A stretch of 64,000 nt of DNA from Candidatus Woesearchaeota archaeon (GCA_002688315.1 NZCN01000002.1:38979-102978), one strand, 5' to 3'; shown: positions 12,004 through 58,696, counted from the first letter of the stretch. Notes: generated from the letters alone by a model not told the origin. Numbers and translations: made by a program.

Positions 12004-12855
12004 TTAGACCTTTCTGAACAGCACTCTTGAAAGAACTTTAAGATAGCTTGGCGCGAGGCCCAGCACTTTGAAATCTGACTTTCCGTGTGAGCGTTGTATC
12101 CATGCAACAGGTATCTCTACTACTTTATATCCCTTAACATATGGAAAAAGCCCTGTTTCTGCATTGATTGCAAAATCATTGCTTTTCCATTTGATGCTTT
12201 TTACGATTTCTGCTTTGTAAAGCTTGAAATTATTTGTTAAGTCATGGCATTTGATTCCTAAGACATTCCTAAGCAGGATATGATACATCCTGTTTGTAAT
12301 CCTTTTCAACAGAGGATAATTAACCAGTTTTCCTTCTGGCATGTATCTTGAGCCTATCACTAAATCATAGCCTTCTTTTGTTTTTTCAATAAATCTTTGC
12401 AAGTCAGGAACATTATGGATAAAGTCAGAGTCCATTGTCAACACCCAGTCTGCTTTTTCACTTACGTTTCTAAACCCGTCTTTTAGGGCTCTTCCAACAC
12501 CGCATGGCGGCTGCCTGTTAATCAGCTTTATTTTGCTGTGCTTTTTCATTAGCTTTCTGGCAACTTCTTCTGTTTTGTCTGCGCTTGCGTCATTAACAAC
12601 CAGGATTTCAAGAATATGCTTGTTGTAGCTCTTTATTAAGCCAGGTATTAGCTTAGCTATGTTTTCTTCTTCATTATGTGCTGCCAACACGACAGAAAGC
12701 TTCATTTTAAGTGTGTAAATGACAAATTTTTTAAAAAGCTTGCTAATTCGTTTACCCATGGCTAAGGTTTTGGTTACTGGAGGAGCTGGTTTTATAGGCT
12801 CTTTTATAGTGGATGAACTTGTCAAAGAAGGCAATGAAGTTGTTATTCTTGACAA
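12004..12855 (-). CDS. GT2 glycosyltransferase, Dpm1-like dolichyl-phosphate sugar synthase; likely start ~12705 (MKLSVVLAAHNEE)
   Basis: 'LSVVLAAHNEEENI', 'VVNDASADKT' and 'LTMDSDFIHNVPDL' (DxD). The stop abuts the start of the downstream membrane protein. Confidence 0.75.
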   Translation of the reverse strand: MSRITTSLPSLTSSSTIKEPIKPAPPVTKTLAMGKRISKLFKKFVIYTLKMKLSVVLAAHNEEENIAKLIPGLIKSYNKHILEILVVNDASADKTEEVARKLMKKHSKIKLINRQPPCGVGRALKDGFRNVSEKADWVLTMDSDFIHNVPDLQRFIEKTKEGYDLVIGSRYMPEGKLVNYPLLKRITNRMYHILLRNVLGIKCHDLTNNFKLYKAEIVKSIKWKSNDFAINAETGLFPYVKGYKVVEIPVAWIQRSHGKSDFKVLGLAPSYLKVLSRVLFRKV

Positions 12856-13870
12856 TCTTGAGCCTCAAGTCCATCAAGGAAACACTCCTGACTACATAAA
12901 CAATTCAGCCAAGTTTGTTAAAGGCAGTGTTCTTGACTTTGAGCTTTTCAAAAAAACAGTGGAAGACGCTGATGTAATCTTACACCAGGCTGCTATGGTT
13001 GGCGTAGGCCAGTCAATGTACCAAGTTTCTCGTTACTCTTCTGCTAATGTTATAGGAACTGCTTACCTCCTTGACATTCTCGCAAATGAAAAGCACAATG
13101 TAAAAAAGGTTTTGGTTGCAGCTTCTATGAGCAGTTATGGCGAAGGCTCTTACAAATGCGAATCCTGCGGGATTGTATCTCCGCCATTAAGAACAGAAGA
13201 GCAGATGAAATCAAAGAAATGGGAGCTAATTTGTAGTTGCGGAAAGCAGCTCGTTCCTATTCCTACTCCCGAGTCCAAGCCATTGCATCCTAACAGTGTC
13301 TACGCAATTACCAAGCAGAATCAGGAGCAAATGGTATTAACAGTTTGCCAGGCTTACGGTATTCCTGCTGTCGCACTGCGGTATTTTAACGTTTACGGCC
13401 CAAGGCAGTCTCTTTCCAATCCTTACACTGGTGTTGCTGCTATTTTCATGAGCCGCATCAAAAATAATAATCCGCCTACTATTTTCGAAAACGGCGGTCA
13501 AAGCAGGGATTTTGTTTCTGTTCACGACATAGTCCAGGCAAATCTTTTGGCTATGAAGTCAAGTGCTGCGGATTATGAAGTTTTGAATGTTGGTTCAGGC
13601 GCTCAAACAACAATAAAAAACGTTGCCGACACTCTTATTAAGCTCTACGGAAAAGAATTTGTTCCGCAGATTACTAGCAGCTTCAGGAAAGGCGATGTAA
13701 GACATTGCTTCGCTGACATTTCAAAAATTAAAAAGCTGCTTAACTTTGAGCCTAAGGTTTCTTTCGAGCAGGGAATGCAGGAGCTTATAGATTGGGGCTC
13801 TTCGCAAAAGTCGGATGATAAAGTTGACCAAGCCACCCAGGAACTTAGGGATAAGGGCTTGATGGAATAA
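12719..13870 (+). CDS. NAD-dependent nucleotide-sugar epimerase/dehydratase (SDR) with a Cys4 zinc-ribbon-like insertion; likely start ~12758 (MAKVLVTGG)
   Basis: 'VLVTGGAGFIGS' Rossmann motif and 'YAITKQNQ' (YxxxK). Insertion 'YKCESCGIVSPP...ELICSCGKQ' (CxxC...CxC). Confidence 0.75.
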   Translation: MTNFLKSLLIRLPMAKVLVTGGAGFIGSFIVDELVKEGNEVVILDNLEPQVHQGNTPDYINNSAKFVKGSVLDFELFKKTVEDADVILHQAAMVGVGQSMYQVSRYSSANVIGTAYLLDILANEKHNVKKVLVAASMSSYGEGSYKCESCGIVSPPLRTEEQMKSKKWELICSCGKQLVPIPTPESKPLHPNSVYAITKQNQEQMVLTVCQAYGIPAVALRYFNVYGPRQSLSNPYTGVAAIFMSRIKNNNPPTIFENGGQSRDFVSVHDIVQANLLAMKSSAADYEVLNVGSGAQTTIKNVADTLIKLYGKEFVPQITSSFRKGDVRHCFADISKIKKLLNFEPKVSFEQGMQELIDWGSSQKSDDKVDQATQELRDKGLME

Positions 13871-13876
13871 GAATTC

Positions 13877-14305
13877 TTACGCTAGCTCAACAACTTTTAC
13901 CTTAAAATTAAGTGTTTTTCCTGCAAGCGGATGGTTTAAGTCTAGCGTTACTTCTGTTTCTGTAACTTCTGCCACTTTTACAGGTATTTGCTGTCCGTCA
14001 GGGCTTTGCAGTCTTAGCATCATTCCTGCTTTTACTTCTTTGTCAGGAGGAAACTGCGCTTTTGGAACCTTTTTCAGCATGCTTGGATTGTGGTCTCCGT
14101 AAGCTTCTGCTGGAGGAATTTTAACGTCTTTTTCTATTCCTTTTTCCATGCCTACGATTGCATTGTCAAGCCCTTTGATTATATTGCCTGAGCCAACTTC
14201 AAACTCAAGTGGTTTGCCGTGCTTCTCAGAACTGTCAAACACTGTTCCGTCTTCAAACGTTCCAGTATAGTCAATTTTTACTTTGTCGCCTTTCTTTACA
14301 GCCAT
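13877..14305 (-). CDS. FKBP-type peptidyl-prolyl cis-trans isomerase (short SlyD/FkpA-like)
   Basis: 'GDKVKIDYTGTFEDGTVFDSS' and 'LEFEVGSGNIIKGLDNAIVGMEKG' are classic FKBP signature blocks. Confidence 0.85.
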   Translation of the reverse strand: MAVKKGDKVKIDYTGTFEDGTVFDSSEKHGKPLEFEVGSGNIIKGLDNAIVGMEKGIEKDVKIPPAEAYGDHNPSMLKKVPKAQFPPDKEVKAGMMLRLQSPDGQQIPVKVAEVTETEVTLDLNHPLAGKTLNFKVKVVELA

Positions 14306-14404
14306 TATTATCGTTTTTTAGAGAATCTGATGTGTTATTTAAGTGTTTAGGTTAGTCCTTTTATTCAGAAACCTTTAAAAAAAGCTCTGACAACGTTTGT
14401 CCCA

Positions 14405-16075
14405 ATGACAACTGTCCTTGGTTTAACAGGGCTTGAGCCTTACAGCGAGAACACTCATGATTCCAGTGCGTGCATTACTGACAAAGCTAAGATAATTGGC
14501 GCTGTTTCTGAAGAGCGCTTTACCAGAAACAGACATCATGCTGGTTTTCCCTGGATGAGTGTTAATTACCTCTTAAAGTTGGGATACTTGTATTCTGATG
14601 TTGATGCTGTTGCAATTCCCTGGCCATTGGAGAAAAACACTTCTAAGAAATTAAAAATTGTCAAACAGCTTTATAGCGCAATTCCAAGATTTAAGGCAGA
14701 ATTCCACAGGCCTATTTTACCTTTTGAAAAGAAAAAGATAATTGGAATAGGACACCAGCGCGCTCATGCTGCTTCTGCCTACAGAACTTCTGGTTTTAAG
14801 AAAGCATTAGTTGTTTCTCTTGACCTTGGCGGTTCTGAGGAAGATGTAGTTAACGCTGAAGGCGGCATCTTTGTTGGCGAAAATGGAAACTTGAAAAGAA
14901 TAAAAGCATTTACTTCAGGTTTTGGAATGTTTTACGCTTTTGTAACTGAAGGCCTTGGTTTCAGAGCTGTTGATGGAGAAGGAAAAACTATGGGCTTGGC
15001 AGCATATGGCGACCCTCATACTGGCGCTTACAAAAGTTTAAAGAATTATGCTTCAACAGTAAGAGGAATTGATTTAATAAAGCAGAAAAGAAACTTTAAA
15101 GCAAGCTTTGCTGTAGTAAACAATTATCAACGCTTTGTTTTTAATGATTTGAACCGTATTCGCTCATTGGTTAAGCGCTTTTCTGATAAGGATGTTGCTG
15201 CTGCTGCCCAAAAAATTCTTGAGGAGCGCGTTACAGAACTGATTGAAAATGCTTTGAAAGAAACAGGAATGAACAAGCTTTGCCTTGCTGGAAGAGTTTT
15301 CCTGAATGTCAAGCTTAATAAAAAACTCAGAGAGCTTAAGAAAGTTAAAGACATTTACATTTATCCAAATCCTGGTGATGCAGGAACTGTTGTTGGAGCA
15401 GCTCTTGAAGCTCATCACAATCTTACTGGAGAAAAAACTATTCCCCAAGTTGAAAACAATGTTTACCTAGGTCCAGAATACAGTGATTCTGAAATTGAAG
15501 CAGTTTTAAAGAAGAATCGCGGTTTGTCTTACAGGAAAACTTCTGACCCTTCAGGAGATGCTGCTGAGCTTATCAGCAGAGGAAGAATTATCGGATGGTT
15601 CCAGGGAAGAATGGAATGGAGTTCCAGAGCTCTTGGTGCAAGGTCTATTCTTGCTGCCCCGCATGATGTTAAAATTAAAGAAAAGCTTAATTCCAGATTA
15701 AAACAGCAGGACTTCTCTGCTTTTGCTCCTTCAATACTTTTGAGAGATGCTCATGAATACCTGAAAAACCCGTCTGAAAGCCCTTTCATGCTTATGGCTT
15801 ATGATGTTTTGCTTAAAGCAAGAGATGATATTGCTGCTACAGTTCATACTGACAATACTGTTGTTCCGCAAACAGTAACTAAAGAGCAAAATCCTTTGTA
15901 TTATGATTTGATAAGAGAGTATGATAAGATGACTGGTGTTCCTGCTGTTCTTCACACTTCTTTAAGGAGGCATAATTGGCCTATTGTTTGCACTCCTGAA
16001 GATGCTTTGGATTATTTATTTATGAAATGCGTGGATTATCTTGTAATAGGCAATTTTATCGTTAAGCTTAAATAG
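14405..16075 (+). CDS. Carbamoyltransferase, NodU/CmcH family
   Basis: N-terminus 'VLGLTGL...HDSSACITDKAKIIGAVSEERFTRNRHHAGFP'. 556 aa length and overall pattern match NodU/CmcH O-carbamoyltransferases. Paralog at 49465..51192. Confidence 0.85.
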   Translation: MTTVLGLTGLEPYSENTHDSSACITDKAKIIGAVSEERFTRNRHHAGFPWMSVNYLLKLGYLYSDVDAVAIPWPLEKNTSKKLKIVKQLYSAIPRFKAEFHRPILPFEKKKIIGIGHQRAHAASAYRTSGFKKALVVSLDLGGSEEDVVNAEGGIFVGENGNLKRIKAFTSGFGMFYAFVTEGLGFRAVDGEGKTMGLAAYGDPHTGAYKSLKNYASTVRGIDLIKQKRNFKASFAVVNNYQRFVFNDLNRIRSLVKRFSDKDVAAAAQKILEERVTELIENALKETGMNKLCLAGRVFLNVKLNKKLRELKKVKDIYIYPNPGDAGTVVGAALEAHHNLTGEKTIPQVENNVYLGPEYSDSEIEAVLKKNRGLSYRKTSDPSGDAAELISRGRIIGWFQGRMEWSSRALGARSILAAPHDVKIKEKLNSRLKQQDFSAFAPSILLRDAHEYLKNPSESPFMLMAYDVLLKARDDIAATVHTDNTVVPQTVTKEQNPLYYDLIREYDKMTGVPAVLHTSLRRHNWPIVCTPEDALDYLFMKCVDYLVIGNFIVKLK

Positions 16076-49464: not shown

Positions 49465-51192
49465 TTAGTCTTTCGCCAGGCTCTCAGAGTCCCACAAGTC
49501 TTTTTTGTTTTCGTTTCTGTCTATTAGGCAGTTTCCAACAACTAAATAGTCAATGCCTGTTCCTGTGAAGCAGCGGTAAGCGTGCTGGGGTGTCATTACT
49601 ATTGGCTCGCCTCTTATGTTAAATGACGTGTTTACCAATACAGGAACTCCGCTGTGTTTCTTGAACTCTTTTATTAGCTTGTAATACATGGGATTTTGTT
49701 TTTCTGTTATTGTTTGCAGCCTTCCGGTTCCGTCAACATGTGTTATTGCAGTGAGTATTAGCCTCATTTCTTCTCTTACAGGATAAACAAATGACATGAA
49801 CGGCACTTCCAAGTCAACTTCAAAGTATTTTTTTGCGTCTTCTAAAGGAACAACTGGCGCAAAAGGCCTGAATTGTTCGCGGTGTTTGACTTTCAAATTT
49901 AATATGTCTTTCATTTTAGGATTGCATGGGTTAGCGAGTATGCTTCTGTTTCCTAATGCACGCTCTCCAAATTCCATTCTTCCTTGGAACCATCCTATTA
50001 CATTGTTTTCCCACAAAAGTTTTGCTACTGTTTTAATCAATTCAGAATTTTTCAGTCTTTTGTATTTTACTTTCTTTTCATTCAGAAAGTTTTCAATGTA
50101 TGCTTCGTCATATCCTGGCCCGAAAAAAGTGTCAGTTATTTCATATCTTTTTTTGCTTCCTAATGCCATGTTCCAGACTGCCATGGCTGCTCCCTGGCTT
50201 GAGCCTGCATCACTTGGCGCTGGAGGCACGTAAACATTTTTGAATTTTGTATTCTTGGTTATTTTTCCGTTTGCAACGCTGTTCAATGAAACTCCTCCTG
50301 ACAAACAAAGGTTTTCTGACCCGCTAATTTTCTGTAAATGGTTGAGCATTTTGAAGTAAACTTCTTCAACTACTTTTTGAACCGAAGCTGCCAGGTCTTT
50401 ATGGTATTGCTCTACTTCAGATTCTTTTTCTCTTTCAGGCCCAAACTCTTCAACGAATTTTTTGCTGTGCATTTTAGCTTTGTAATGAAATACAAAGTAG
50501 CTCATGTCAAGCCTGTAGCTTCCGTCTTCTTTGATGTCTATAAGTTTCTTGACTTTGTCATAATATATTGGCTTTCCGTAAGGAGCAAGCCCCATTACTT
50601 TATACTCGTCATTGTTTACTTTGAATCCAAGATAACCTGTTACTGTGCTGTAGAGCAATCCCAATGAGTGTGGAAAATTTATTTCTTTAAGCAGTTTTAT
50701 GTTGTTGTCTTTTCCTGTTCCAAGAGTTGTTGTTGCCCATTCTCCAACACCGTCTGTTGTCATTATTGCTGCTTCTTTGAATGGTGAGGCAAAGAATGAG
50801 CCTGCTGCATGCGTTAAGTGGTGCTCAACATAGTAAATCTCTCCTCTGTAGCCGCATTTTTTGCTCATCAAGGAAGGTATTCTTAATTTTTCCATGGCCC
50901 ATGAAGGCAAAGCTTGAACAAAAGTTAATAATGATCTTGGAAACATTTCTAAGTGTGAGTTAAGAAGCCTTTCAAACTTCAGCATAGGTTTTTCGTAAAA
51001 CGCAACATAACTTACGTCTTTTATTGTAATTCCTGCTTCCCGCAGGCAGTATTTTATTGAGTTTATTGGAAAGTCTGTGTCATGCTTTTTCCTGCTCCAT
51101 CTTTCTTCCTGAGCTGCAGCTATTAGCTTTCCGTCTTTTATTATTGATGCTGAAGAGTCGTGGTAAAAGCAGGCAACTCCAAGTATGTACAT
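49465..51192 (-). CDS. Carbamoyltransferase, NodU/CmcH family (second copy)
   Basis: 'MYILGVACFYHDSSASIIKDGKLIAAAQEERWSRKKHDTDFP', 575 aa. Confidence 0.85.
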   Translation of the reverse strand: MYILGVACFYHDSSASIIKDGKLIAAAQEERWSRKKHDTDFPINSIKYCLREAGITIKDVSYVAFYEKPMLKFERLLNSHLEMFPRSLLTFVQALPSWAMEKLRIPSLMSKKCGYRGEIYYVEHHLTHAAGSFFASPFKEAAIMTTDGVGEWATTTLGTGKDNNIKLLKEINFPHSLGLLYSTVTGYLGFKVNNDEYKVMGLAPYGKPIYYDKVKKLIDIKEDGSYRLDMSYFVFHYKAKMHSKKFVEEFGPEREKESEVEQYHKDLAASVQKVVEEVYFKMLNHLQKISGSENLCLSGGVSLNSVANGKITKNTKFKNVYVPPAPSDAGSSQGAAMAVWNMALGSKKRYEITDTFFGPGYDEAYIENFLNEKKVKYKRLKNSELIKTVAKLLWENNVIGWFQGRMEFGERALGNRSILANPCNPKMKDILNLKVKHREQFRPFAPVVPLEDAKKYFEVDLEVPFMSFVYPVREEMRLILTAITHVDGTGRLQTITEKQNPMYYKLIKEFKKHSGVPVLVNTSFNIRGEPIVMTPQHAYRCFTGTGIDYLVVGNCLIDRNENKKDLWDSESLAKD

Positions 51193-51429: not shown

Positions 51430-51774
51430 CTAATCTTTCTTTTTCTTTTTTTCTTTTTCTATTGCCATGTTTCTTACTAGTTCTTCAACTCTTTTGTCTG
51501 TATTTCTGGCAACACGATAAGTGTAGAATGTGGTTGCTATCAGAAACATGAATCCCAGTATTATGAATAAGTCTAGTTTTCTTCCGAGGTTAAGGCTTCT
51601 TACTATTGGGTCAAGCACTTGCGGAAATACTGATAGGGTTGCAAACAAAATTGCAAACAATGCCCAAAAGCTCCATTCTGTCAAGGTAAATTCTTTTTTC
51701 TTGTAGTACAGAAATGACATGTAAAGTATGAATGCGCTAAATACTAATCCAAATACTTGTATTCCCAATGGCAT
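51430..51774 (-). CDS. Small membrane protein (114 aa, 3-4 TM), DUF2304-like GT2 companion
   Basis: Hydrophobic ORF with a K-rich C-terminus, immediately downstream of the GT2 at 51827..52486. Confidence 0.35.
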   Translation of the reverse strand: MPLGIQVFGLVFSAFILYMSFLYYKKKEFTLTEWSFWALFAILFATLSVFPQVLDPIVRSLNLGRKLDLFIILGFMFLIATTFYTYRVARNTDKRVEELVRNMAIEKEKKKKKD

Positions 51775-51826
51775 TTTTTGTTATCCCTCTGTTTTTTTGA
51801 AATTACCGCTGTTTTTTAAATTTATT

Positions 51827-52486
51827 TCATTTGCTTAGCTTCCACCATAGCATTCTCATGGCTATGTTTATTCCGTCAAACACAGTAGTTCCTTTATATT
51901 TGTCATTGTAAACAGTTTCTATTGGAAGTTGTTTGAATTTTAATTTGTGTTTTCCTGTTTTTGCAGCTATCTCAGATTCTATATTGTAGTCGCTTGATAT
52001 CAAGCCAAGCTTTTTGTAAGCATCTGTGGTCATTGCTTTGAAACCGCATTGAGTGTCTTTTATTCTTATGTTAAACAGGATGCTCAGAAGCGTATTCAGT
52101 ACAAAGTTTCCTATTTTTTTAATTAAAGGCATGTTCATGCTTTTGAGGTTTCTGTAAGTGAAAACAACATCAATGTTTTTAAGCTCATTTAGCAGTCTTG
52201 GAAGGTCTTTTGGGTTGTGCTGTCCGTCGCTGTCAATGAAAATAATTGTGTCTGCTCCATGTTTGCCTGCGTATTCTATGCCTGTTTTTAGTGCAGCTCC
52301 TTTCCCGAGGTTTATTGGATGTCTTAAAACGATTACTTTTGTTTTCTTTGCTTCTTGGTATGTTTTGTCTTTTGAGCCGTCATCTACTACAACTATGTTT
52401 TTGCTGTATTTTTTTATTTCATTCACTACTTTTGCTATGTGCTTCTCTTCGTTAAACGCAGGTATTATTACAAACGGTTTTTTCAT
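51827..52486 (-). CDS. GT2 glycosyltransferase, Dpm1-like catalytic subunit (no TM)
   Basis: 'FVIIPAFNEEKHI', 'VVDDGSKDKT' and 'FIDSDGQHNPKDL'. 10 nt downstream of aglB. Confidence 0.75.
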   Translation of the reverse strand: MKKPFVIIPAFNEEKHIAKVVNEIKKYSKNIVVVDDGSKDKTYQEAKKTKVIVLRHPINLGKGAALKTGIEYAGKHGADTIIFIDSDGQHNPKDLPRLLNELKNIDVVFTYRNLKSMNMPLIKKIGNFVLNTLLSILFNIRIKDTQCGFKAMTTDAYKKLGLISSDYNIESEIAAKTGKHKLKFKQLPIETVYNDKYKGTTVFDGINIAMRMLWWKLSK

Positions 52487-52496
52487 TTTCTTACCT

Positions 52497-55400
52497 TTAC
52501 TTTATTTCCGCAATTTTAACTTTGAAATAAAGCGTTGTGTTGAAAAATACGTGGCTTGGATCAGTATATCCTTGCTCTGGCTCAACAGTTATTATTTTTT
52601 CTTCATTTAGCTTTGTTCCTAAGATTCCTTTTTCAAATCCAGGTATTACTGAGTTTAATCCTGTAGTGAATGCCATTGAATCATGCGGGTATTCGTCAAT
52701 GCCAGTTTCCTTAGTTACTCCTTTACCTCTGAAATCATTTATTGAGCTGTCAAACACTGTTCCATCCTCTAAATATCCTATATAGTTAACCATGACTTCA
52801 TCGCCTAAACTTACTTCGGTTTTTTCTTCTACTGGTTTAAGTTCGTTCATTATGTTTTGCTGCTTTCCTTCCCAGTCAACTTGCCATACCCATATGTTGG
52901 TTCCTGTAAAACTCTGCTGTCTTGTTAAAAGTTTGAAATATTTTAAGCTGTGTCCTTGCATGTAAAACATTTTTGCAAACATTCCATCAACTAATTCAGG
53001 GCTTCCTACAATCCTGTTATAGTTTCCTCCTGATGGAATGAGCAGTATTCCTAAATTTTGAGGCACTGTATTGTTATCAAACGTTTTCTTAATAACTTCT
53101 CCTTCAGCAGTAGGGTAGCTTATTGAAATTGGGTGCTGGTTTCCTTGTGGTGTTGGATACCATGCATTGTAGTCTGCAGGGTCAACAATTAATCCGTCTC
53201 CGCATTTTATTAGTTCATCAACAATGCTGCATCCATGCACTCCTCCTGAAAAACCGTTCCATGGTCCTATCCATGCATCTGCAGCTCCGTCATTTGAAAT
53301 TCCCTGCATTTGTTCATAAATGCTGTTTGCTTCTTCCTCGCTCATTTCATGTGTTTCTTTCATGTATTGCACTGCTTCTTCTCTTGGCTTTCCTCCAACT
53401 GCTTTCCATATGTCTGCTTTGGTGTAGTCCCAGGCTCCAAAGTGTCCCCATACTCCGGATTTGCCTATCATGTCTTCAGAAGCAATTACAAATGATTCAG
53501 GCGGGTTGCAATGTGTTAATTCCAAAATTTCATTTGCTTCCTGCTCACTCAATTCTTCTTCCAAAAGAACTTGTTTTGCTCCATCTCTGTCAAGCATTAT
53601 TATCTTTTTGGTAAGCTTAACAGCATAAACATTATCTTTTCCTGATTTTTTCTCTAATTCATGAGTTCCAAAATGCGCTCCGCAGTTAAGCATTCTTAAT
53701 ATGCCTATTGCTTCTCGCTCGTCGCTTGTGCTGAAAAATCTGCCTACCCAATGCGCTTGAGGAAATGCTTGAGTTGTTCCGTCAAAAGTTACAGCTCTGT
53801 CAGCCAAGGATTTGAAATGGTGTCCAAAGTCCCACCACGAGGTTATTATTGCGTCTTCTTTTGAGTTTTCTTTTATGCTGTTTAATGAGTTAAACCATGC
53901 GTCGTTTATTAGAGGAACATCATTGTTTACTACGTTTCGCGCAGCGTTAACTACGTCGCTGTTAAAAGTTGGTCCTGGAAACATCATGAATAACATGGCG
54001 AAGACAATAGTCATTACAATCAATTTGTTAAATTTGAATTGCTTGCTTGTCCATGCTCCCACATATCCTGTGATGAGGCCAAAGACAATGCCAAATGCTA
54101 TGCTGAATGCAGGCACTAAAAGAAGAACAAATCTAATTCCTTTTGTTACAGCATACAAAGTTGCTATGAACCATATTGTAAGCACAACCGCATAAAACAA
54201 ATCTCTTACTATTTTTTCATTGTCTCTTTCCTTTTTGTAGGCTTCAAATGCCGCTCTTGCTATTATGAGGATTATTCCAAAAACTGCAATGTAAAAAAGT
54301 GAGCTTCCAATCTGGTTTATTGCTTGCTGCGCTGTTCCTTCGTTAAGTTCTGCTACTGTTCTCAGAACGTTTGGAGCTGCACTTCCAACCACAGGTGTTT
54401 TTAGCGTCCTAAAGCCTATGGATGCTACAGGAGTTAATAAGAAAGTGCTCAACCCAGATGTTATGGTCATAGTAATGCCAGTAACTGCAAAGTACGTTGC
54501 TGTAATAGTGATTATTTTTCTGGAAACACTATTCTTAAGACTGTTTAACCCGTTTTTTATCACTGTGCCTTTTCCAGTAAAGGCTTGGTAAAGCACAAAC
54601 AATCCGAAAGTTGCTGCTGCTGAAGCTAAAATAAAGTCAAATATCCACCACCAGCCTCCCCACGTAAGGCTGTACAAAGTTGTTGCAATTCCTGAAAGAG
54701 CTGCAAACACGATTTTCAGCATTATTCTTTTTGCAGAAACTGCTTCAATGAAAAGCCACAGCACAAGCACTGCAAAAAATATGACTATTGCATCTGAATC
54801 CCCATGCCCGAACTGGGTTCTGTTGATTAAAGCTGCATGCACTCCCACCATTGTTGCTGCAAAAAATGCAGCTACGTTTCCAGCTATTCTTCTTGTTAGC
54901 AAGAACACAATTAATGTGGAAAGCGCTGATATGAAAACAGGATAAAACATTAATGCTCTTTGCAGCTCAAGGCCTGGCTTGAATATTTTTGCAACGTTGT
55001 AAAACAAAACTATGGATTGTGGATAAAAAGTATCTTTAGGAGCAATCATTCTTCCTACAGGCGCAAATTGGTGGTTATCCCATTGCATGCCATCTCTGAT
55101 TTCATCTCCTACGTGCCCTTTCTCAACTATGTTTCTGGAATATCTCCACCAGTAATAAGGGTCAATGTCAGGCATGTAGTTTTTTCCAGTTTCATCTTGG
55201 TAGAATGTTTTGAATTGCTGCGAGGCAATTTCAATCTGTTGCTGCAGGTTTATTGTTTGCCCTGCAAACTGGCTTGTTTTGAAAGTGTATGTTCCTGCCC
55301 TCTTTGCTTTATTAAGTTCTTCCGCAGCAAGCTGCTGCCTGTTGCTGTCCGGCAGATTCGGATATGTTTGGCTTACAAAACTGGCAATGTCATTGTTTAT

Positions 55401-55913
55401 TGTTTGATCAATGCTGTTTCTTGCCCAATTATCTGTAAAACCTAACTCTCCTGATTGCATTCTTAAGTTGAATCCAATTCCAACGCTAACAACTATTCCT
55501 AGAATCAAAAACAAAGTCATGTGATATTTCTTCAGAAAATTCATAACAGAACTGATATCGAAGTCTTCATCACCTTTGCTTTCTTTAGCTCCGCTTTTTG
55601 CTCCCTTAAAAATTCCTTTTATGCCGGCAATTGCTTTTCCAACATCTATTTCATCTTTGCTGTCATCGCTTTTACTGGTTTCGTGTTCAATTTTTTTATC
55701 ATTTTCTTTAACATCTTCCGCTTTATGTTCGCTTTTAGTTTCATTTTTGCTATCAACAGTAGTTGCAGAAATAGGTTCTTTTCCTTCAGAACTTTTTTTT
55801 CTCTTAAACAAGCCTGTTATCTTTCCAAAGTCAATCTCAACATCTTCATCTTTTTTATCTTCAACGACTTTTATGTTATCACCATAATCTTTCTTATCCT
55901 GAGATTCAGCCAT
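52497..55913 (-). CDS. aglB: Oligosaccharyltransferase AglB/STT3 with an N-terminal K/E/D-rich extension and a C-terminal FKBP-type PPIase domain fused in frame
   Basis: 1138-aa continuous ORF. ~13 TM helices, then 'ITSWWDFGHHF' (the WWDYG-type OST catalytic motif). The last ~110 aa, 'GDEVMVNYIGYLEDGTVFDSS...GLNSVIPGFEKGILG', align with the standalone FKBP at 13877..14305. The first ~135 aa are Lys/Glu/Asp-rich. Confidence 0.8.
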   Translation of the reverse strand: MAESQDKKDYGDNIKVVEDKKDEDVEIDFGKITGLFKRKKSSEGKEPISATTVDSKNETKSEHKAEDVKENDKKIEHETSKSDDSKDEIDVGKAIAGIKGIFKGAKSGAKESKGDEDFDISSVMNFLKKYHMTLFLILGIVVSVGIGFNLRMQSGELGFTDNWARNSIDQTINNDIASFVSQTYPNLPDSNRQQLAAEELNKAKRAGTYTFKTSQFAGQTINLQQQIEIASQQFKTFYQDETGKNYMPDIDPYYWWRYSRNIVEKGHVGDEIRDGMQWDNHQFAPVGRMIAPKDTFYPQSIVLFYNVAKIFKPGLELQRALMFYPVFISALSTLIVFLLTRRIAGNVAAFFAATMVGVHAALINRTQFGHGDSDAIVIFFAVLVLWLFIEAVSAKRIMLKIVFAALSGIATTLYSLTWGGWWWIFDFILASAAATFGLFVLYQAFTGKGTVIKNGLNSLKNSVSRKIITITATYFAVTGITMTITSGLSTFLLTPVASIGFRTLKTPVVGSAAPNVLRTVAELNEGTAQQAINQIGSSLFYIAVFGIILIIARAAFEAYKKERDNEKIVRDLFYAVVLTIWFIATLYAVTKGIRFVLLLVPAFSIAFGIVFGLITGYVGAWTSKQFKFNKLIVMTIVFAMLFMMFPGPTFNSDVVNAARNVVNNDVPLINDAWFNSLNSIKENSKEDAIITSWWDFGHHFKSLADRAVTFDGTTQAFPQAHWVGRFFSTSDEREAIGILRMLNCGAHFGTHELEKKSGKDNVYAVKLTKKIIMLDRDGAKQVLLEEELSEQEANEILELTHCNPPESFVIASEDMIGKSGVWGHFGAWDYTKADIWKAVGGKPREEAVQYMKETHEMSEEEANSIYEQMQGISNDGAADAWIGPWNGFSGGVHGCSIVDELIKCGDGLIVDPADYNAWYPTPQGNQHPISISYPTAEGEVIKKTFDNNTVPQNLGILLIPSGGNYNRIVGSPELVDGMFAKMFYMQGHSLKYFKLLTRQQSFTGTNIWVWQVDWEGKQQNIMNELKPVEEKTEVSLGDEVMVNYIGYLEDGTVFDSSINDFRGKGVTKETGIDEYPHDSMAFTTGLNSVIPGFEKGILGTKLNEEKIITVEPEQGYTDPSHVFFNTTLYFKVKIAEIK

Positions 55914-55932
55914 AAATTGAGAACATATGAAT

Positions 55933-55944
55933 TATTTATAAAGT
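55933..55944 (-). promoter_or_regulatory. Putative TATA box (archaeal) ~25-30 nt upstream of the aglB ATG
   Basis: Minus-strand 'ctttataaataattcatatgttctcaattt-ATG'. Confidence 0.3.
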
Positions 55945-55956
55945 TATTGCCCAAAA

Positions 55957-57069
55957 TCAAAACAACAATTTTCTTGACAAAAGCAGCAGTTTTGGCTCTT
56001 GCATCAGCAGTTTGAGCGCAAACTTTCTTGGTTCGTCTCTGTCAAAGGTTTCAAGGATTTTTTTATTTTTATCGCTGCTGAAAATTCTTATCAATTTGTT
56101 ATATTCGTTATCAGAAAACTTGTTCATTATCTTCCTCATCATTAGTGAAAGCCATAAATCTCTGCCAATTTTTGCTTTCCATAGCTTTTTGTAATCTTTT
56201 CCTGTTTCAATTGCTTCAGTAACAGCAGTTGCAGCTATCAGGCTCTGATTTATGCCGCCCAGTGTTGTTGACTTAATCATTGTTGCAGCATCTCCTGCAA
56301 GCAAAATTTTTCCTTTTTGTGTTTTCGCTTTTGGATTGTGAAGCGGAATAGGCCCTGCCTGGTGCGCTATTATCTTTTTCTTGTAGTCTTTTCCCACTGC
56401 TCTTGCCATAAACTCGTCAAAATATATGCTGGCTTGGTTAGAAACAGCAATCCCTGCCCTCACTATTTTATTATTTTCAGGAACAGTCCATGCTATTCCT
56501 TTCTCTGAAGGATAGAACTCTATTATATTGTCATTTTCTAAGTTCGCAGTAACTTGCAGCCCAACATAGAATTTTCTGTTTTCAAACAAGCCAGAAGATT
56601 TTGCTACTTCGCTTCTCGGTCCGTCTGCTCCAATAAGCCAGTCGCTTTCAACTTTGATAACATTTCCCAGGTTCTTGTTTTTGATGCTTGCTGTAATTTT
56701 TCCATTGCTTTGCTCTAATCCAATAAAGCGGTGGTTAACATAATACTTTGCTCCTGCTTCTTTTGCAAGCCCTGCAATGTGCTGGTCCATTCTTGCTCTG
56801 TCAACAATAATGTCGTTCTTTAGTTTTACTTCAACAGAATTTCCATCAGGAGCTATTATGCGGGCTTTTTCTATTCTATTAATAATAATGTTTTCCGGCA
56901 GTCTTATTTGTTTTGAAAGAACATCTCCTGTTATTACGCCTGTGCAGGCCCATGGTATTCCAATCACAGGCTGTTCGTCATAAACCGCAACATCATAGCC
57001 TTTTTTCGCAAGCAAGTAAGCGCTATAATTGCCTGCAGGCCCTGCTCCTATTATAGAGACTTTAGTCAT
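55957..57069 (-). CDS. Geranylgeranyl reductase-family FAD-dependent oxidoreductase (possible dolichol/polyprenol reductase)
   Basis: 'VSIIGAGPAGNYSAYLLAKKGYDVAVYDEQ' (FAD Rossmann of GGR family), 370 aa. Immediately upstream of aglB on the same strand. Confidence 0.75.
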   Translation of the reverse strand: MTKVSIIGAGPAGNYSAYLLAKKGYDVAVYDEQPVIGIPWACTGVITGDVLSKQIRLPENIIINRIEKARIIAPDGNSVEVKLKNDIIVDRARMDQHIAGLAKEAGAKYYVNHRFIGLEQSNGKITASIKNKNLGNVIKVESDWLIGADGPRSEVAKSSGLFENRKFYVGLQVTANLENDNIIEFYPSEKGIAWTVPENNKIVRAGIAVSNQASIYFDEFMARAVGKDYKKKIIAHQAGPIPLHNPKAKTQKGKILLAGDAATMIKSTTLGGINQSLIAATAVTEAIETGKDYKKLWKAKIGRDLWLSLMMRKIMNKFSDNEYNKLIRIFSSDKNKKILETFDRDEPRKFALKLLMQEPKLLLLSRKLLF

Positions 57070-57226: not shown

Positions 57227-58696
57227 TTGCTTGGAGATTCAAAAATGCCAAATCTGACTGATATCTTAAACAGAACTGAGGATATTGTTAAAAACACAGT
57301 CACTTTTGTTCCAACTGTTGCTGATAGATTTCTTGTTCAAAATGTAGTTAAAGGCAGTCAGAATCTTCCTGCCAGCGTTAAACAGTTCAATAGAGACCAT
57401 ATATTAAGAAACTCTCTCACTGATCGTTTGAAAGATTCAAATTCCAAGACCAGAAAAGCATTAAGCACTGTTTTGGGTTATGGTGTTCCTGTTGCTGCCT
57501 TAGCTGTTGCAGACAAGGTGTTGGGCACAGACACTGCTCCTATCAGGTCAGCTATTGACGAGATTGGGAAGTGGTATGGAAACAGCTGGCAAATCGCTAC
57601 TCCAATCACTGCTGGCGGCGCTGCCATGCTTGCTGCAACTCAAAGAAACGTAAGAGGCGCTGTTTCCACTGGCGCTAATTCTGCTGGAAGCTTTGTTTAC
57701 GATAACGCTTTACTGCCTGTTGCTCATGGTTTTAGAGGTATTTATAGAAATGCACGCGATCACCCGTTTATATGGGGCTACAGTGTATTTGGAGCAGCTC
57801 TTGGTTTAACCGTTGTTGCTGGTGCTGCTTATGCATTATTAACAAAAGACGATGCTTCTGAAGAAGCTCAAGAACCTATTGTTGCTACCGCACCTGTTAC
57901 TGAGCCTATTGATGGAAGCGTAGTCTTTAATTATTTAGAACAATATTTAGATGAGCATCTTAATGCTGCTAAGGTTTTCTTTAAAGCTTACTCGCCTGTT
58001 AGTCTTACTACAGACGATTTGAGAAGCATTGCTGATGTTATCAGTCAAATGCCAACTGCTGTTCCTGCTGATAACTTTGATGCAGGACGAGTAGTAAGAT
58101 TGATAGATGGTATTCTTGCAAGTAAAGGTTATGTTGACCAAGCTAGTTTAGATGCTGCTGTTGTAGGTGAGGTTGTAAAGAGTCTTACCGCTACTCCAAC
58201 TTATACTCATGTTCCTCCTGCTACTGAGACTCCTGTTCCTCCTACTCCTGTTCCAGCTACTCCTGTTCCAGCTACTCCTGTTCCTCCTGCTACTGGAACT
58301 CCTGTTCCTCCTGCTACTGAGACTCCTGTTCCTCCAGGCATTGCAGCATTGCAAGATGCTTTCGTGTATGGATTTTCAAAACAGCTAACAAGTGATATGT
58401 ATGACAGTAATCCTAATAGATTTTTAGACGCATTTGGTGTTGTTCCAGGCGCACGTAGCCAAATACTTAACTGGTTTGATGGAGATCTTGCTAATGCAGA
58501 AGCAGTAACTATTGATGGTGTGGCTATGGTAATTAATGGTGTTGATAACATATCAAAGATTTATTTAAGTGAACAAGGAAGAGGAGCTGAATTTTCTGAT
58601 GTTGTAGCACAAACTGCTAAGAACTTCACATTAGATTTTATGAGAGACAATCCAGAAAGAATTGAGGACGTTGTTGTAATTGAAGCAGGTAATTAA
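57227..58696 (+). CDS. Membrane-anchored protein with cytoplasmic N-domain, single TM, Pro/Thr-rich repeat linker and extracytoplasmic C-domain (probable ATG start at 57245)
   Basis: No N-terminal signal peptide. Internal TM 'FIWGYSVFGAALGLTVVAGAAYALL'. Repeat linker 'PATETPVPPTPVPATPVPATPVPPATGTPVPPATETPVPP'. GC is visibly higher than in the neighbouring genes. Confidence 0.5.
   Translation: MLGDSKMPNLTDILNRTEDIVKNTVTFVPTVADRFLVQNVVKGSQNLPASVKQFNRDHILRNSLTDRLKDSNSKTRKALSTVLGYGVPVAALAVADKVLGTDTAPIRSAIDEIGKWYGNSWQIATPITAGGAAMLAATQRNVRGAVSTGANSAGSFVYDNALLPVAHGFRGIYRNARDHPFIWGYSVFGAALGLTVVAGAAYALLTKDDASEEAQEPIVATAPVTEPIDGSVVFNYLEQYLDEHLNAAKVFFKAYSPVSLTTDDLRSIADVISQMPTAVPADNFDAGRVVRLIDGILASKGYVDQASLDAAVVGEVVKSLTATPTYTHVPPATETPVPPTPVPATPVPATPVPPATGTPVPPATETPVPPGIAALQDAFVYGFSKQLTSDMYDSNPNRFLDAFGVVPGARSQILNWFDGDLANAEAVTIDGVAMVINGVDNISKIYLSEQGRGAEFSDVVAQTAKNFTLDFMRDNPERIEDVVVIEAGN
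58209..58336 (+). repeat. In-frame tandem ~15-nt DNA repeats (ACTCCTGTTCC(A/T)(G/C)CT) encoding the Pro/Thr linker
   Basis: 'gttcctcctgctactgagactcctgttcctcctactcctgttccagctactcctgttccagctactcctgttcctcctgctactgg...'. Confidence 0.7.

What the first reader, a model, noticed from the sequence alone, without database searches (positions are those of the whole stretch)
52497..55913. AglB/STT3 oligosaccharyltransferase fused in frame to a C-terminal FKBP prolyl isomerase domain, with a long disordered N-terminal extension
The 1138-aa ORF is uninterrupted. It has the multi-TM STT3 core with the 'WWDFG' catalytic motif. It ends in a ~110-aa domain whose signature blocks ('GDEVMVNYIGYLEDGTVFDSS', '...IPGFEKGILG') align residue-for-residue with the standalone FKBP at 13877..14305. 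In AglB/STT3 the C-terminal domain is extracytoplasmic. The fusion would therefore place a peptidyl-prolyl isomerase next to the sequon-binding site outside the membrane, which suggests coupled folding and N-glycosylation of exported proteins. I do not know of a described AglB-FKBP architecture. The ~135-aa Lys/Glu/Asp-rich N-terminus is also atypical for AglB.
Basis: partly seen in the sequence, partly recalled or inferred. Interest (0 to 1): 0.78.

Follow-up and report, generated by a model that had tools for sequence, protein, structure and literature searches.

The report
Archaeal glycosylation enzyme fused to foldase
A Woesearchaeota gene encodes the membrane enzyme that attaches sugars to exported proteins (AglB/STT3), joined in one chain to an outside-facing FKBP protein-folding domain; the fusion is real, recurs in dozens of related archaea, and appears undescribed in the searchable literature.

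Summary
ORF 52497..55913(-) is an uninterrupted 1138-aa protein. It has a disordered, charged N-terminus, a 13-helix STT3/AglB core with the catalytic motifs (DID, DSD, TVAE, WWDFG), an external domain, an ordered 16-aa linker and a C-terminal FKBP domain (Pfam E=5e-14). It is not an assembly artefact. The identical protein occurs on 4 contigs. In 38 of 38 FKBP-bearing loci from other species genomes, the FKBP lies in the same open frame as the core. Among 232 full-length relatives (Woesearchaeota/Nanoarchaeia), 66 carry FKBP. Twelve carry an unrelated parvulin-type prolyl isomerase in the same C-terminal position. FKBP pocket residues are nearly invariant. The closest free relatives of the domain are mostly secreted or lipid-anchored FKBPs. 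I infer a bifunctional extracellular enzyme that pairs N-glycosylation with prolyl isomerase/chaperone action on exported proteins. The coupling itself is unproven, because docking near the active site could not be measured. The N-terminal extension is normal for this clade. No paper describing the architecture was found. The nearest parallel is human FKBP11, which binds non-covalently beside OST-A. Verdict: new variant of a known kind, interest about 0.63.

The parts
52497..55913 (-). Complete AglB-FKBP fusion gene (1138 aa plus stop codon at 52497..52499)
   Evidence: Single ORF. The identical protein is in NCBI as hypothetical CMO88_01150, Ca. Woesearchaeota, and is seen on 4 contigs.
55524..55913 (-). 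Cytoplasmic N-terminal extension, aa 1-130. It is K/D/E-rich with three amphipathic motif copies: EIDFGKITGLFKRKK, EIDVGKAIAGIKGIFKG and DFDISSVMNFLKKYH.
   Evidence: Composition and motif conservation in relatives. AF2 gives aa 1-89 pLDDT below 50 and helices at 32-36, 91-106 and 120-129. No Pfam hit.
53958..55523 (-). 13-helix GT-C transmembrane core (STT3 N-terminal domain), aa 131-652, with a long first external loop
   Evidence: PF02516 E=6e-43. AF2 helices. Foldseek hits PglB 6gxc at E=7e-20, AfAglB 7e9s and STT3A.
55161..55169 (-). First acidic catalytic motif D249-I-D251 in external loop 1
   Evidence: D251 is invariant in 75 sequences. It aligns to the 'EFDPYF' motif of human STT3A. 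Coordinates verified.
54792..54800 (-). Second acidic motif D372-S-D374
   Evidence: D372 and D374 are conserved in at least 90% of sequences. The motif aligns to STT3A 'YDNE'. Coordinates verified.
54348..54359 (-). T519-V-A-E522, the TIXE/SVSE-type motif of external loop 5
   Evidence: T519 and E522 are invariant. Coordinates verified.
52869..53957 (-). Extracytoplasmic C-terminal AglB domain, aa 653-1015: a helical core plus a beta-rich peripheral unit ending in the conserved 'VWQVDWE'
   Evidence: AF2 pLDDT is mostly above 90. Weak PF21436 hit. The conserved end-motif occurs across the family.
53823..53837 (-). W693-W-D-F-G697 catalytic motif
   Evidence: W693, W694, D695 and G697 are invariant. 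Coordinates verified.
53448..53474 (-). D814-MIGKSGV-W822, a candidate DK/MI-type Ser/Thr-pocket motif (M-x-x-K-x-x-x-W)
   Evidence: D814, M815, K818 and W822 are conserved in at least 90% of sequences. Helix at 819-826 in AF2. The assignment rests on pattern and position only (inference).
52821..52868 (-). Linker aa 1016-1031 (GKQQNIMNELKPVEEK)
   Evidence: pLDDT is 85-95 across aa 1011-1040. Linker plus FKBP length is 130-137 aa in 31 of 41 fusions.
52500..52820 (-). FKBP-type PPIase domain, aa 1032-1138. It has an ~18-aa 'bulge' insertion, a short flap and one N-T-T sequon at 1125.
   Evidence: PF00254 E=5e-14. Foldseek hits FKBP13 2pbc at TM 0.80. Pocket residues Y1044, F1054, D1055, V1089, I1090, F1093, Y1116, H1121 and F1130 are conserved across 41 fusions.
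55957..57069 (-). Upstream co-oriented FAD-dependent reductase, read as geranylgeranyl-reductase-like. It is a syntenic partner.
   Evidence: The Pfam hits are generic flavoprotein families: FAD_binding_3, DAO, NAD_binding_8 and Pyr_redox_2. The GGR-like label is my inference. The gene is found upstream of AglB in most related loci.
51827..52486 (-). Downstream GT2 glycosyltransferase, 10 nt after the AglB stop. It is a syntenic partner.
   Evidence: PF00535 E=6e-28. Conserved downstream of AglB in most loci.
51430..51774 (-). DUF2304 small membrane protein, a syntenic partner
   Evidence: PF10066 E=4.5e-21. Conserved in most loci.

Best explanation
The gene encodes a bifunctional, single-chain surface enzyme of a DPANN (Woesearchaeota) archaeon. 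The N-terminal 1015 residues form a complete AglB/STT3 oligosaccharyltransferase. Its C-terminal catalytic domain faces outward, where it transfers lipid-linked glycans to Asn-X-Ser/Thr sites of exported proteins. A short, ordered linker ties this domain to an FKBP-type peptidyl-prolyl isomerase. That domain has an intact binding pocket and descends from an extracytoplasmic FKBP subfamily. The most likely mechanism is as follows. Unfolded polypeptides emerging at the membrane meet the glycosylation site and a prolyl isomerase/holdase on the same molecule. Glycosylation needs a flexible chain, so it takes place beside a catalyst of the slow folding step. This matters in a small-genome cell that has no periplasmic or ER chaperone network. 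What is shown: the architecture, the topology by homology, conservation of the pocket, recurrence across species, and substitution by parvulin. What is inferred: PPIase activity, action on the same substrates, and any kinetic coupling.
For: The ORF and both domains are real. All tested STT3 catalytic motifs are present and invariant or nearly so. The AF2 model has mean pLDDT 86.9 and pTM 0.81, 13 TM helices, a linker at pLDDT 85-95 and an FKBP domain at 90 or above. Foldseek matches PglB, AglB and STT3 for the body and FKBP13/FKBP12 for the tail. There is no TM segment after aa 651. The fusion is in one open frame in 38 of 38 independent genome loci. Among 232 full-length relatives, 66 carry FKBP. 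Of the top 150 FKBP matches among 50%-identity clusters, 35 are such fusions: 26 full-length and 9 fragments. Pocket residues across 41 fusions are Y26 40/41, F36 40/41, D37 41/41, I56 37/41, Y82 41/41 and F99 41/41. The FKBP domain is about as conserved as the catalytic core, 35-60% against 35-67% identity. Twelve relatives instead carry a C-terminal parvulin PPIase that keeps its His/Asp/His pattern. This points to selection for prolyl-isomerase/chaperone function as such. Of 28 close non-AglB FKBP relatives inspected, about 20 begin with a hydrophobic N-terminal segment of the signal-peptide, lipobox or signal-anchor kind. A conserved N-x-T sequon occurs inside the FKBP domain in 54 of 62 fusions, which fits an extracellular, glycosylated location.
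Against: No activity data exist. About two thirds of the family (153 of 232) have no PPIase domain, so the domain is accessory and not required for AglB function. Model coordinates and PAE were unavailable, so proximity of the FKBP pocket to the WWD site is untested. A search for core positions that co-vary with FKBP presence gave only subfamily markers and no interface signal. In the one characterised case of an FKBP beside an OST (human FKBP11), the pocket is buried by CCDC134. The authors of that work argue for an adaptor role, not an isomerase role (PMC12804085).
Confidence: 0.6

Rival explanations
1. Anchor only. The FKBP (or parvulin) is a general extracellular foldase that uses AglB as its membrane anchor and co-expression partner, in place of the lipid anchor or signal-anchor of its free relatives. 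It has no substrate hand-off or kinetic coupling with glycosylation.
For: Most of the closest free relatives inspected appear membrane-tethered through lipobox-like or signal-anchor N-termini. The C-terminus of this AglB clade accepts varied additions: FKBP, parvulin, DUF4352 in L039, and sequon-rich tails. Domain presence is patchy, with at least 15 state changes on a rough NJ tree. No interface signature was found.
Against: Two unrelated PPIase folds were fixed repeatedly on this one protein and at the same position. The linker is short, length-conserved (31 of 41 within 130-137 aa) and confidently modelled, which suggests a defined geometry and not a loose tether. In the top 150 FKBP matches, the STT3 fusions form the only recurrent long fusion class.
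Confidence: 0.27
2. Non-catalytic adaptor or regulator. The FKBP pocket binds a proline-containing segment of a partner protein or of AglB itself, in order to recruit or gate substrates. This would resemble FKBP11 recruiting CCDC134 at human OST-A.
For: FKBP11 provides a precedent, with its pocket buried in a protein-protein interface next to STT3A (PDB 9n9j). Pocket conservation is equally expected for a binding role.
Against: Replacement by parvulin, a different fold with a different pocket, in the same slot is hard to reconcile with a specific protein-protein adaptor. No conserved partner gene beyond glycan-synthesis genes appears in the synteny.
Confidence: 0.12
3. Artefact. A frameshift, a missed stop codon or an assembly chimera joins two separate genes.
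For: None was found. It was considered only because the window is a metagenome-assembled sequence.
Against: The identical protein occurs on 4 contigs from several sources. In 38 of 38 related loci from different assemblies the FKBP is in the same open frame as the core. No separate FKBP gene lies next to unfused AglBs.
Confidence: 0.01

Closest known systems
Archaeal AglB / eukaryotic STT3 / bacterial PglB oligosaccharyltransferases (GT-C, family GT66), e.g. A. fulgidus AglB (PDB 3waj, 7e9s) and C. lari PglB (3rce, 6gxc)
   Same: Shared features are the 13-TM GT-C core, the DxD, DxD/E, TIXE and WWDXG motifs, an external C-terminal domain and a glycosylation gene neighbourhood.
   Different: None of the solved or described enzymes carries a folding-catalyst domain. 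This clade also adds a 70-330-aa cytoplasmic N-terminal extension, a long first external loop and an M-x-x-K-x-x-x-W variant of the DK/MI motif.
Human FKBP11 at the OST-A secretory translocon (PDB 9n9j; PMC12804085; DiGuilio et al. 2024, cited there)
   Same: An FKBP domain sits on the extracytoplasmic/lumenal side beside an STT3-family catalytic subunit while secretory proteins are made.
   Different: FKBP11 is a separate single-pass protein that is recruited non-covalently and depends on the ribosome. Its pocket is buried by CCDC134, and it is proposed to act as an adaptor. Here the FKBP is covalently fused to the catalytic subunit and no CCDC134-like partner is evident.
Ost3/Ost6 (TUSC3/MagT1) thioredoxin-like subunits of eukaryotic OST (comparison from general knowledge, not tested here)
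   Same: The concept is the same: a folding-related catalytic domain attached to OST that holds or delays substrates to raise site occupancy.
   Different: The chemistry differs (disulfide exchange against prolyl isomerisation). They are separate subunits and the fold is unrelated.
Membrane-tethered extracellular PPIases of prokaryotes, such as PrsA (parvulin lipoprotein) and Mip-type FKBP lipoproteins (general knowledge); also the lipobox/signal-anchor FKBPs found
   Same: These are extracytoplasmic PPIases held at the membrane surface to fold exported proteins. The fused FKBP belongs to the same bulge-insertion subfamily as the secreted forms found here.
   Different: Their anchor is a lipid or a single helix, not an enzyme of another protein-maturation pathway.
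Standalone FKBP of the same window (13877..14305)
   Same: It has an FKBP_C domain and shares 36% identity over the N-terminal half.
   Different: It has no hydrophobic N-terminus and is longer, with extra sequence beyond the Pfam FKBP_C match at aa 3-88. I read it as a cytoplasmic SlyD-like chaperone (inference). It lacks the bulge insertion of the fused domain.

Membership tests
AglB/STT3/PglB oligosaccharyltransferase (Pfam PF02516; GT-C) | Significant match to the STT3 N-terminal (transmembrane) domain model | tested here: met
   PF02516 E=6.1e-43, 148 bits against a cutoff of 24.5, at aa 232-643.
AglB/STT3/PglB oligosaccharyltransferase (Pfam PF02516; GT-C) | 13-TM GT-C fold with an external C-terminal domain | tested here: met
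   The AF2 model (pLDDT 86.9) has 13 membrane helices. Foldseek probability is 1.0 to PglB (E=7e-20), AfAglB and STT3A/B.
AglB/STT3/PglB oligosaccharyltransferase (Pfam PF02516; GT-C) | Acidic metal/acceptor-binding motifs in EL1 (DxD) and near TM3-4 (DxD/DxE) | tested here: met
   D249-I-D251 has D251 invariant. D372-S-D374 is conserved in at least 90% of sequences. Both align to the STT3A motifs.
AglB/STT3/PglB oligosaccharyltransferase (Pfam PF02516; GT-C) | TIXE/SVSE motif in external loop 5 | tested here: met
   In T519-V-A-E522, T519 and E522 are invariant in 75 sequences.
AglB/STT3/PglB oligosaccharyltransferase (Pfam PF02516; GT-C) | WWDXG motif in the C-terminal domain | tested here: met
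   In W693-W-D-F-G697, W, W, D and G are invariant.
AglB/STT3/PglB oligosaccharyltransferase (Pfam PF02516; GT-C) | DK (DxxKxxxM/I) or MI (MxxIxxxI/V/W) Ser/Thr-pocket motif | tested here: inconclusive
   A nearly invariant D814-M815-I-G-K818-S-G-V-W822 reads as a hybrid M-x-x-K-x-x-x-W. The assignment is by pattern and position only, with no structural superposition.
AglB/STT3/PglB oligosaccharyltransferase (Pfam PF02516; GT-C) | Oligosaccharyltransferase activity on N-X-S/T | not testable with these tools
   This needs an in vitro OST assay or complementation.
NCBIfam TIGR04154 archaeo_STT3 (archaeosortase A-associated AglB subfamily) | Score above the curated cutoff | tested here: not met
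   48.2 bits against a cutoff of 450. The protein is not a member of that subfamily.
FKBP-type peptidyl-prolyl isomerase (Pfam PF00254) | Significant match to the FKBP_C model and an FKBP fold | tested here: met
   PF00254 E=5e-14, 52.8 bits against a cutoff of 21.1, at aa 1032-1134. Foldseek TM is 0.79-0.80 to FKBP13 (2pbc, 4nnr).
FKBP-type peptidyl-prolyl isomerase (Pfam PF00254) | Conserved hydrophobic pocket and polar residues (FKBP12 Y26, F36, D37, V55, I56, W59, Y82, F99) | tested here: met
   The query has Y1044, F1054, D1055, V1089, I1090, F1093 (W to F), Y1116 and F1130. Conservation is 37-41 of 41 at Y26, F36, D37, I56, Y82 and F99. V55 is kept in 25 of 41, and position 59 is Phe in 33 of 41.
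FKBP-type peptidyl-prolyl isomerase (Pfam PF00254) | PPIase activity / FK506 binding | not testable with these tools
   This needs a biochemical assay.
SlyD-like / archaeal long FKBP chaperones | Insert-in-flap (IF) chaperone domain in the 80s loop | tested here: not met
   The flap is shortened, with gaps at the FKBP12 I90/I91 columns in 41 of 41 fusions. The only insertion is ~18 aa in the bulge after FDSS.

The most novel reading that the evidence does not exclude
The PPIase domain is docked at the peptide entry/exit side of the AglB active site and acts in cis on the same translocating chain. This would make a minimal one-polypeptide 'glycosylate-then-fold' machine. It would have been assembled repeatedly in DPANN archaea from two different PPIase folds, and it would be convergent with the eukaryotic OST-A/FKBP11 arrangement. 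The clade-specific Lys-rich amphipathic repeats on the cytoplasmic N-terminus might additionally couple the enzyme to the translocation or translation machinery.
Probability: 0.25. Interest if true: 0.85.

Novelty: new variant of a known kind. Interest (0 to 1): 0.63.

Why it matters
How N-glycosylation is coordinated with protein folding is an open question. Oligosaccharyltransferases need unfolded sequons, and folding competes with them. In eukaryotes the coordination relies on multi-subunit complexes, and an FKBP (FKBP11) was placed next to OST-A only in 2024-2025, with an unclear role. Here natural selection has repeatedly welded a prolyl isomerase onto the catalytic subunit itself, using either of two unrelated folds. 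This is a strong gene-fusion ('Rosetta stone') signal that the two activities belong together at the cell surface. It also offers a simple single-chain system, expressible with and without the domain, for testing the coupling directly. In addition it suggests how genome-reduced DPANN archaea may compensate for lacking an extracellular chaperone network.

Tried and rejected
1. Assembly or frameshift artefact was rejected.
2. A recent duplication of the window's standalone FKBP was rejected. Identity is only 36%, and the fused domain groups with secreted bulge-insertion FKBPs.
3. The precomputed Pfam order suggested that the parvulin domain sits at the N-terminus, which would mean a different topology. 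Re-scanning rejected this: the domain is C-terminal in P0030, P0088 and P0090. P0314 was dropped as a false parvulin call.
4. The search for homologous proteins with the FKBP domain alone returned only 19 small FKBPs and none of the fusions. This is a word-index limitation, so the result was uninformative.
5. A search for AglB-core positions specific to FKBP-bearing clades, as a proxy for a docking interface, found 9 columns. All of them track subfamily and not domain presence.
6. The afdb50 fold library was unavailable.
7. Model coordinates and PAE are not exposed, so the distance from FKBP to the active site could not be measured.
8. Literature searches used these term sets: AglB+FKBP; OST+peptidyl-prolyl+fusion+archaea; AglB+DPANN; STT3+FKBP+domain architecture; Woesearchaeota+OST; AglB+C-terminal+isomerase+fused. 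None found a description of the architecture.
9. TIGR04154 membership was rejected.
Full report
**Observation.** The window carries a single uninterrupted ORF of 1138 aa at 52497..55913 on the minus strand. Pfam finds STT3 (PF02516) at aa 232-643 with E=6e-43. It finds FKBP_C (PF00254) at aa 1032-1134 with E=5e-14. There is also a weak STT3/PglB core hit around the WWD region. NCBIfam gives only sub-threshold hits, and the protein fails the archaeosortase-associated AglB subfamily model (48 bits against a cutoff of 450). PDB sequence search matches human STT3A in two blocks, covering the DxD/EL1 region and the WWDYG region, and matches archaeal and eukaryotic FKBPs at the C-terminus. The exact protein is already in NCBI as a 'hypothetical protein' of a Tara Oceans Candidatus Woesearchaeota MAG. 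It was seen on four contigs.

**Anatomy.** The first 131 aa are 44% K+D+E. AF2 gives aa 1-89 pLDDT below 50. The region is not featureless, however. It holds three copies of an amphipathic motif (EIDFGKITGLFKRKK, EIDVGKAIAGIKGIFKG, DFDISSVMNFLKKYH) that recurs throughout the clade.
- TM1 starts at aa 131, and AF2 predicts 13 membrane helices.
- In a 75-sequence alignment the invariant or nearly invariant residues are D251 (D249-I-D251), D372/D374, T519/E522 (TVAE), R594 and W693-W-D-F-G697.
- A block D814-M-I-G-K818-S-G-V-W822 is also conserved. I read it as a DK/MI-type motif variant; this is an inference.
- No hydrophobic segment follows aa ~651.
- The AglB body ends in the family-wide 'VW(K/Q)VDWEG' strand.
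- A 16-aa linker follows, then the FKBP domain.
- The model is confident overall (mean pLDDT 86.9, pTM 0.81). This includes the linker (85-95) and the FKBP domain (90 or above).
- Foldseek matches PglB (E=7e-20), A. fulgidus AglB and STT3A/B for the body. It matches FKBP13/FKBP12 (TM 0.73-0.80) for the tail.

By homology with solved OSTs, the WWD domain and everything after it are extracytoplasmic.

**Is the fusion real?** Yes. In the protein database, 41 of 101 homologs carry the FKBP, always at the extreme C-terminus and down to 34% identity. In species-representative genomes, 80 related loci were retrieved. In 38 of them tblastn found the FKBP, and in 38 of 38 it lies in the same open reading frame as the AglB core. 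L071 carries a more divergent FKBP. An exhaustive HMMER scan of 1.84 billion 50%-identity cluster representatives with the FKBP domain alone returned AglB fusions for 35 of its top 150 hits. Of these, 26 are full-length and 9 are contig-edge fragments. Record titles name Woesearchaeota, Nanoarchaeota/Nanoarchaeia, one 'Aenigmatarchaeota', and many TPA bins labelled 'uncultured Methanosarcinales'. The last label is probably wrong, given how similar those loci are to the others.

**The key extra result.** Re-scanning three homologs whose precomputed Pfam lists named parvulin families showed that the parvulin PPIase domain is also C-terminal. It directly follows the same VWKVDW strand: P0030 aa 999-1104 of 1108, P0088 aa 980-1061 of 1062, and P0090 aa 1055-1154 of 1211. 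A search seeded with P0088 showed that the family is large, with at least 1436 proteins. Among 232 full-length members collected here, 66 carry FKBP, 12 carry parvulin and about 153 carry neither (one false parvulin call was removed). The parvulin domains keep the His/Asp/His pattern of active parvulins. On a rough NJ tree of the core, the three states interleave. There are 10 FKBP groups (two large, of 35 and 19 members) and 7 parvulin groups, with at least 15 parsimony changes. That tree has no support values, so these counts are indicative only. One locus (L039) carries a DUF4352 domain in the same slot. Unfused members end in short tails rich in N-x-S/T.

**The FKBP domain.** Across 41 fusions the FKBP12-equivalent pocket residues are almost invariant: Y26 40/41, F36 40/41, D37 41/41, I56 37/41, Y82 41/41 and F99 41/41. 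W59 is replaced by F in 33 of 41, and H87 is kept in 33 of 41. The flap is shortened with no IF chaperone insert, and an ~18-aa insertion follows FDSS. This insertion is shared by both large fusion clades and by small free relatives. Most of the free relatives inspected start with lipobox-like signal peptides or signal anchors (about 20 of 28), and some are multi-FKBP repeat proteins. An N-x-T sequon just before the last strand is present in 54 of 62 fusions (N1125-T-T in the query). A second sequon in the bulge is present in 38 of 62. Both fit an extracellular, glycosylated domain. The FKBP domain is about as conserved as the catalytic core across loci. The standalone FKBP at 13877..14305 is only 36% identical. 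It is not the source of the fused domain.

**Context.** The gene sits in a tight, co-directional cluster. The order is an FAD-dependent reductase (55957..57069, read as geranylgeranyl-reductase-like), then AglB-FKBP, a GT2 10 nt downstream (51827..52486), DUF2304 (51430..51774) and a carbamoyltransferase (49465..51192). The order reductase / AglB / GT2 / DUF2304 is conserved in most of the 80 loci, whether or not a PPIase is fused. No separate FKBP gene lies beside unfused AglBs. The window as a whole is a glycan-biosynthesis island with several GT2 paralogs and a second carbamoyltransferase.

**Mechanism.** I commit to a bifunctional surface enzyme. It is a complete AglB whose outside-facing catalytic domain is extended by an active FKBP-type PPIase/holdase, and that domain works on the same pool of freshly exported, still unfolded proteins (confidence about 0.6). 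The strongest argument for selection on prolyl-isomerase/chaperone function is the repeated use of two unrelated PPIase folds in one slot. A short, length-conserved, confidently modelled linker (31 of 41 tails are 130-137 aa long) hints at a defined geometry. Three things are not shown: enzymatic activity, proximity to the sequon-binding groove, and any kinetic coupling. The main rival (about 0.27) is that AglB merely replaces the lipid anchor of a general extracellular foldase. A second rival (about 0.12) is a non-catalytic adaptor role, as proposed for FKBP11. An artefact is effectively excluded.

**Comparison with what is known.** The protein is a member of the AglB/STT3 family. All tested defining features are met except the DK/MI motif, which is inconclusive. 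Its tail is a member of the FKBP family. Neither solved OST structures nor the reviews and papers reachable here mention an OST-PPIase fusion. The nearest functional parallel came from the fold search: PDB 9n9j, the human secretory translocon with FKBP11 and CCDC134 beside OST-A. In that structure the FKBP is a separate protein with its pocket buried, and its authors argue for an adaptor role. From general knowledge, other parallels are the Ost3/Ost6 thioredoxin subunits and bacterial membrane-anchored PPIases such as PrsA.

**Verdict.** The architecture is present but unremarked in databases, and I could not find it described in the literature, so it is a new variant of a known kind. Interest is 0.63.

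Noticed in passing
window 55524..55913 (-), aa 1-130; also the heads of P0002-P0045: The cytoplasmic N-terminal extension carries 2-3 copies of a conserved amphipathic motif (consensus roughly [DE]-[IL]-[SD]-[IF]-D-F-[GS]-K-[IV]-K-x-[IF]-F-K), separated by charged low-complexity spacers. It is a feature of the whole Woesearchaeota AglB clade and is absent from outgroup AglBs. The local Pfam copy gives no hit. Some relatives carry a precomputed PF27869 label that could not be looked up.
   Followed up: partly
P0025-P0062 and loci L021-L054 (C-terminal tails of unfused AglBs): Unfused relatives end, right after the VWKVDWEG strand, in 30-65-aa low-complexity tails packed with N-x-S/T sequons. 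Many finish in ...NSS or ...NNS at the very C-terminus. These could be self-glycosylation substrates placed next to the enzyme's own active site.
   Followed up: no
L039:~9169..9642: One relative carries a DUF4352 domain (Pfam E=1.5e-20) in the C-terminal slot in place of a PPIase. The AglB C-terminus in this clade therefore appears to be a hot spot for domain accretion.
   Followed up: partly
window 51430..57069 and loci L001-L080: The gene order FAD-dependent (GGR-like) reductase / AglB / GT2 / DUF2304 is conserved across most of the 80 loci. It may be a core lipid-carrier plus glycosylation module of Woesearchaeota. The role of the GT2+DUF2304 pair is unknown.
   Followed up: partly
window 57227..58696 (+): A 489-aa ORF with no Pfam hit lies on the opposite strand just beyond the reductase gene. 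It has several hydrophobic segments and a Pro/Thr-rich repeat (PATPVPATPVPPATGTPVPPATETPVPP). Weak homologs lie near the cluster in L007 and L014. It could be a proline-rich surface protein.
   Followed up: no
window 13877..14305 (-) and 12719..16075: A standalone FKBP (142 aa, read as SlyD-like) sits between an NAD-dependent epimerase-like gene and a second carbamoyltransferase paralog (34% identical to the one at 49465..51192). At least six GT2 paralogs are spread over the window, which makes it a large glycan-biosynthesis island.
   Followed up: partly
P0122, P0137 and other hits: Among the closest relatives of the fused FKBP are lipoprotein-like or secreted proteins with 3-6 tandem FKBP domains (P0122 has 4 Pfam stretches; P0137 has 6).
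   Followed up: partly
L004, L008, L013, L016, L025-L027 and others (record titles): Many TPA metagenome bins titled 'uncultured Methanosarcinales archaeon' carry this Woesearchaeota-type AglB with the same synteny. The taxonomic label of these bins is probably wrong.
   Followed up: no
L021 and L036 (both from MAG NZDH01, ARS106): Two contigs of one MAG carry apparently identical AglB loci, with the same hit coordinates and identities. This points to a duplicated contig in the bin rather than true paralogs.
   Followed up: no
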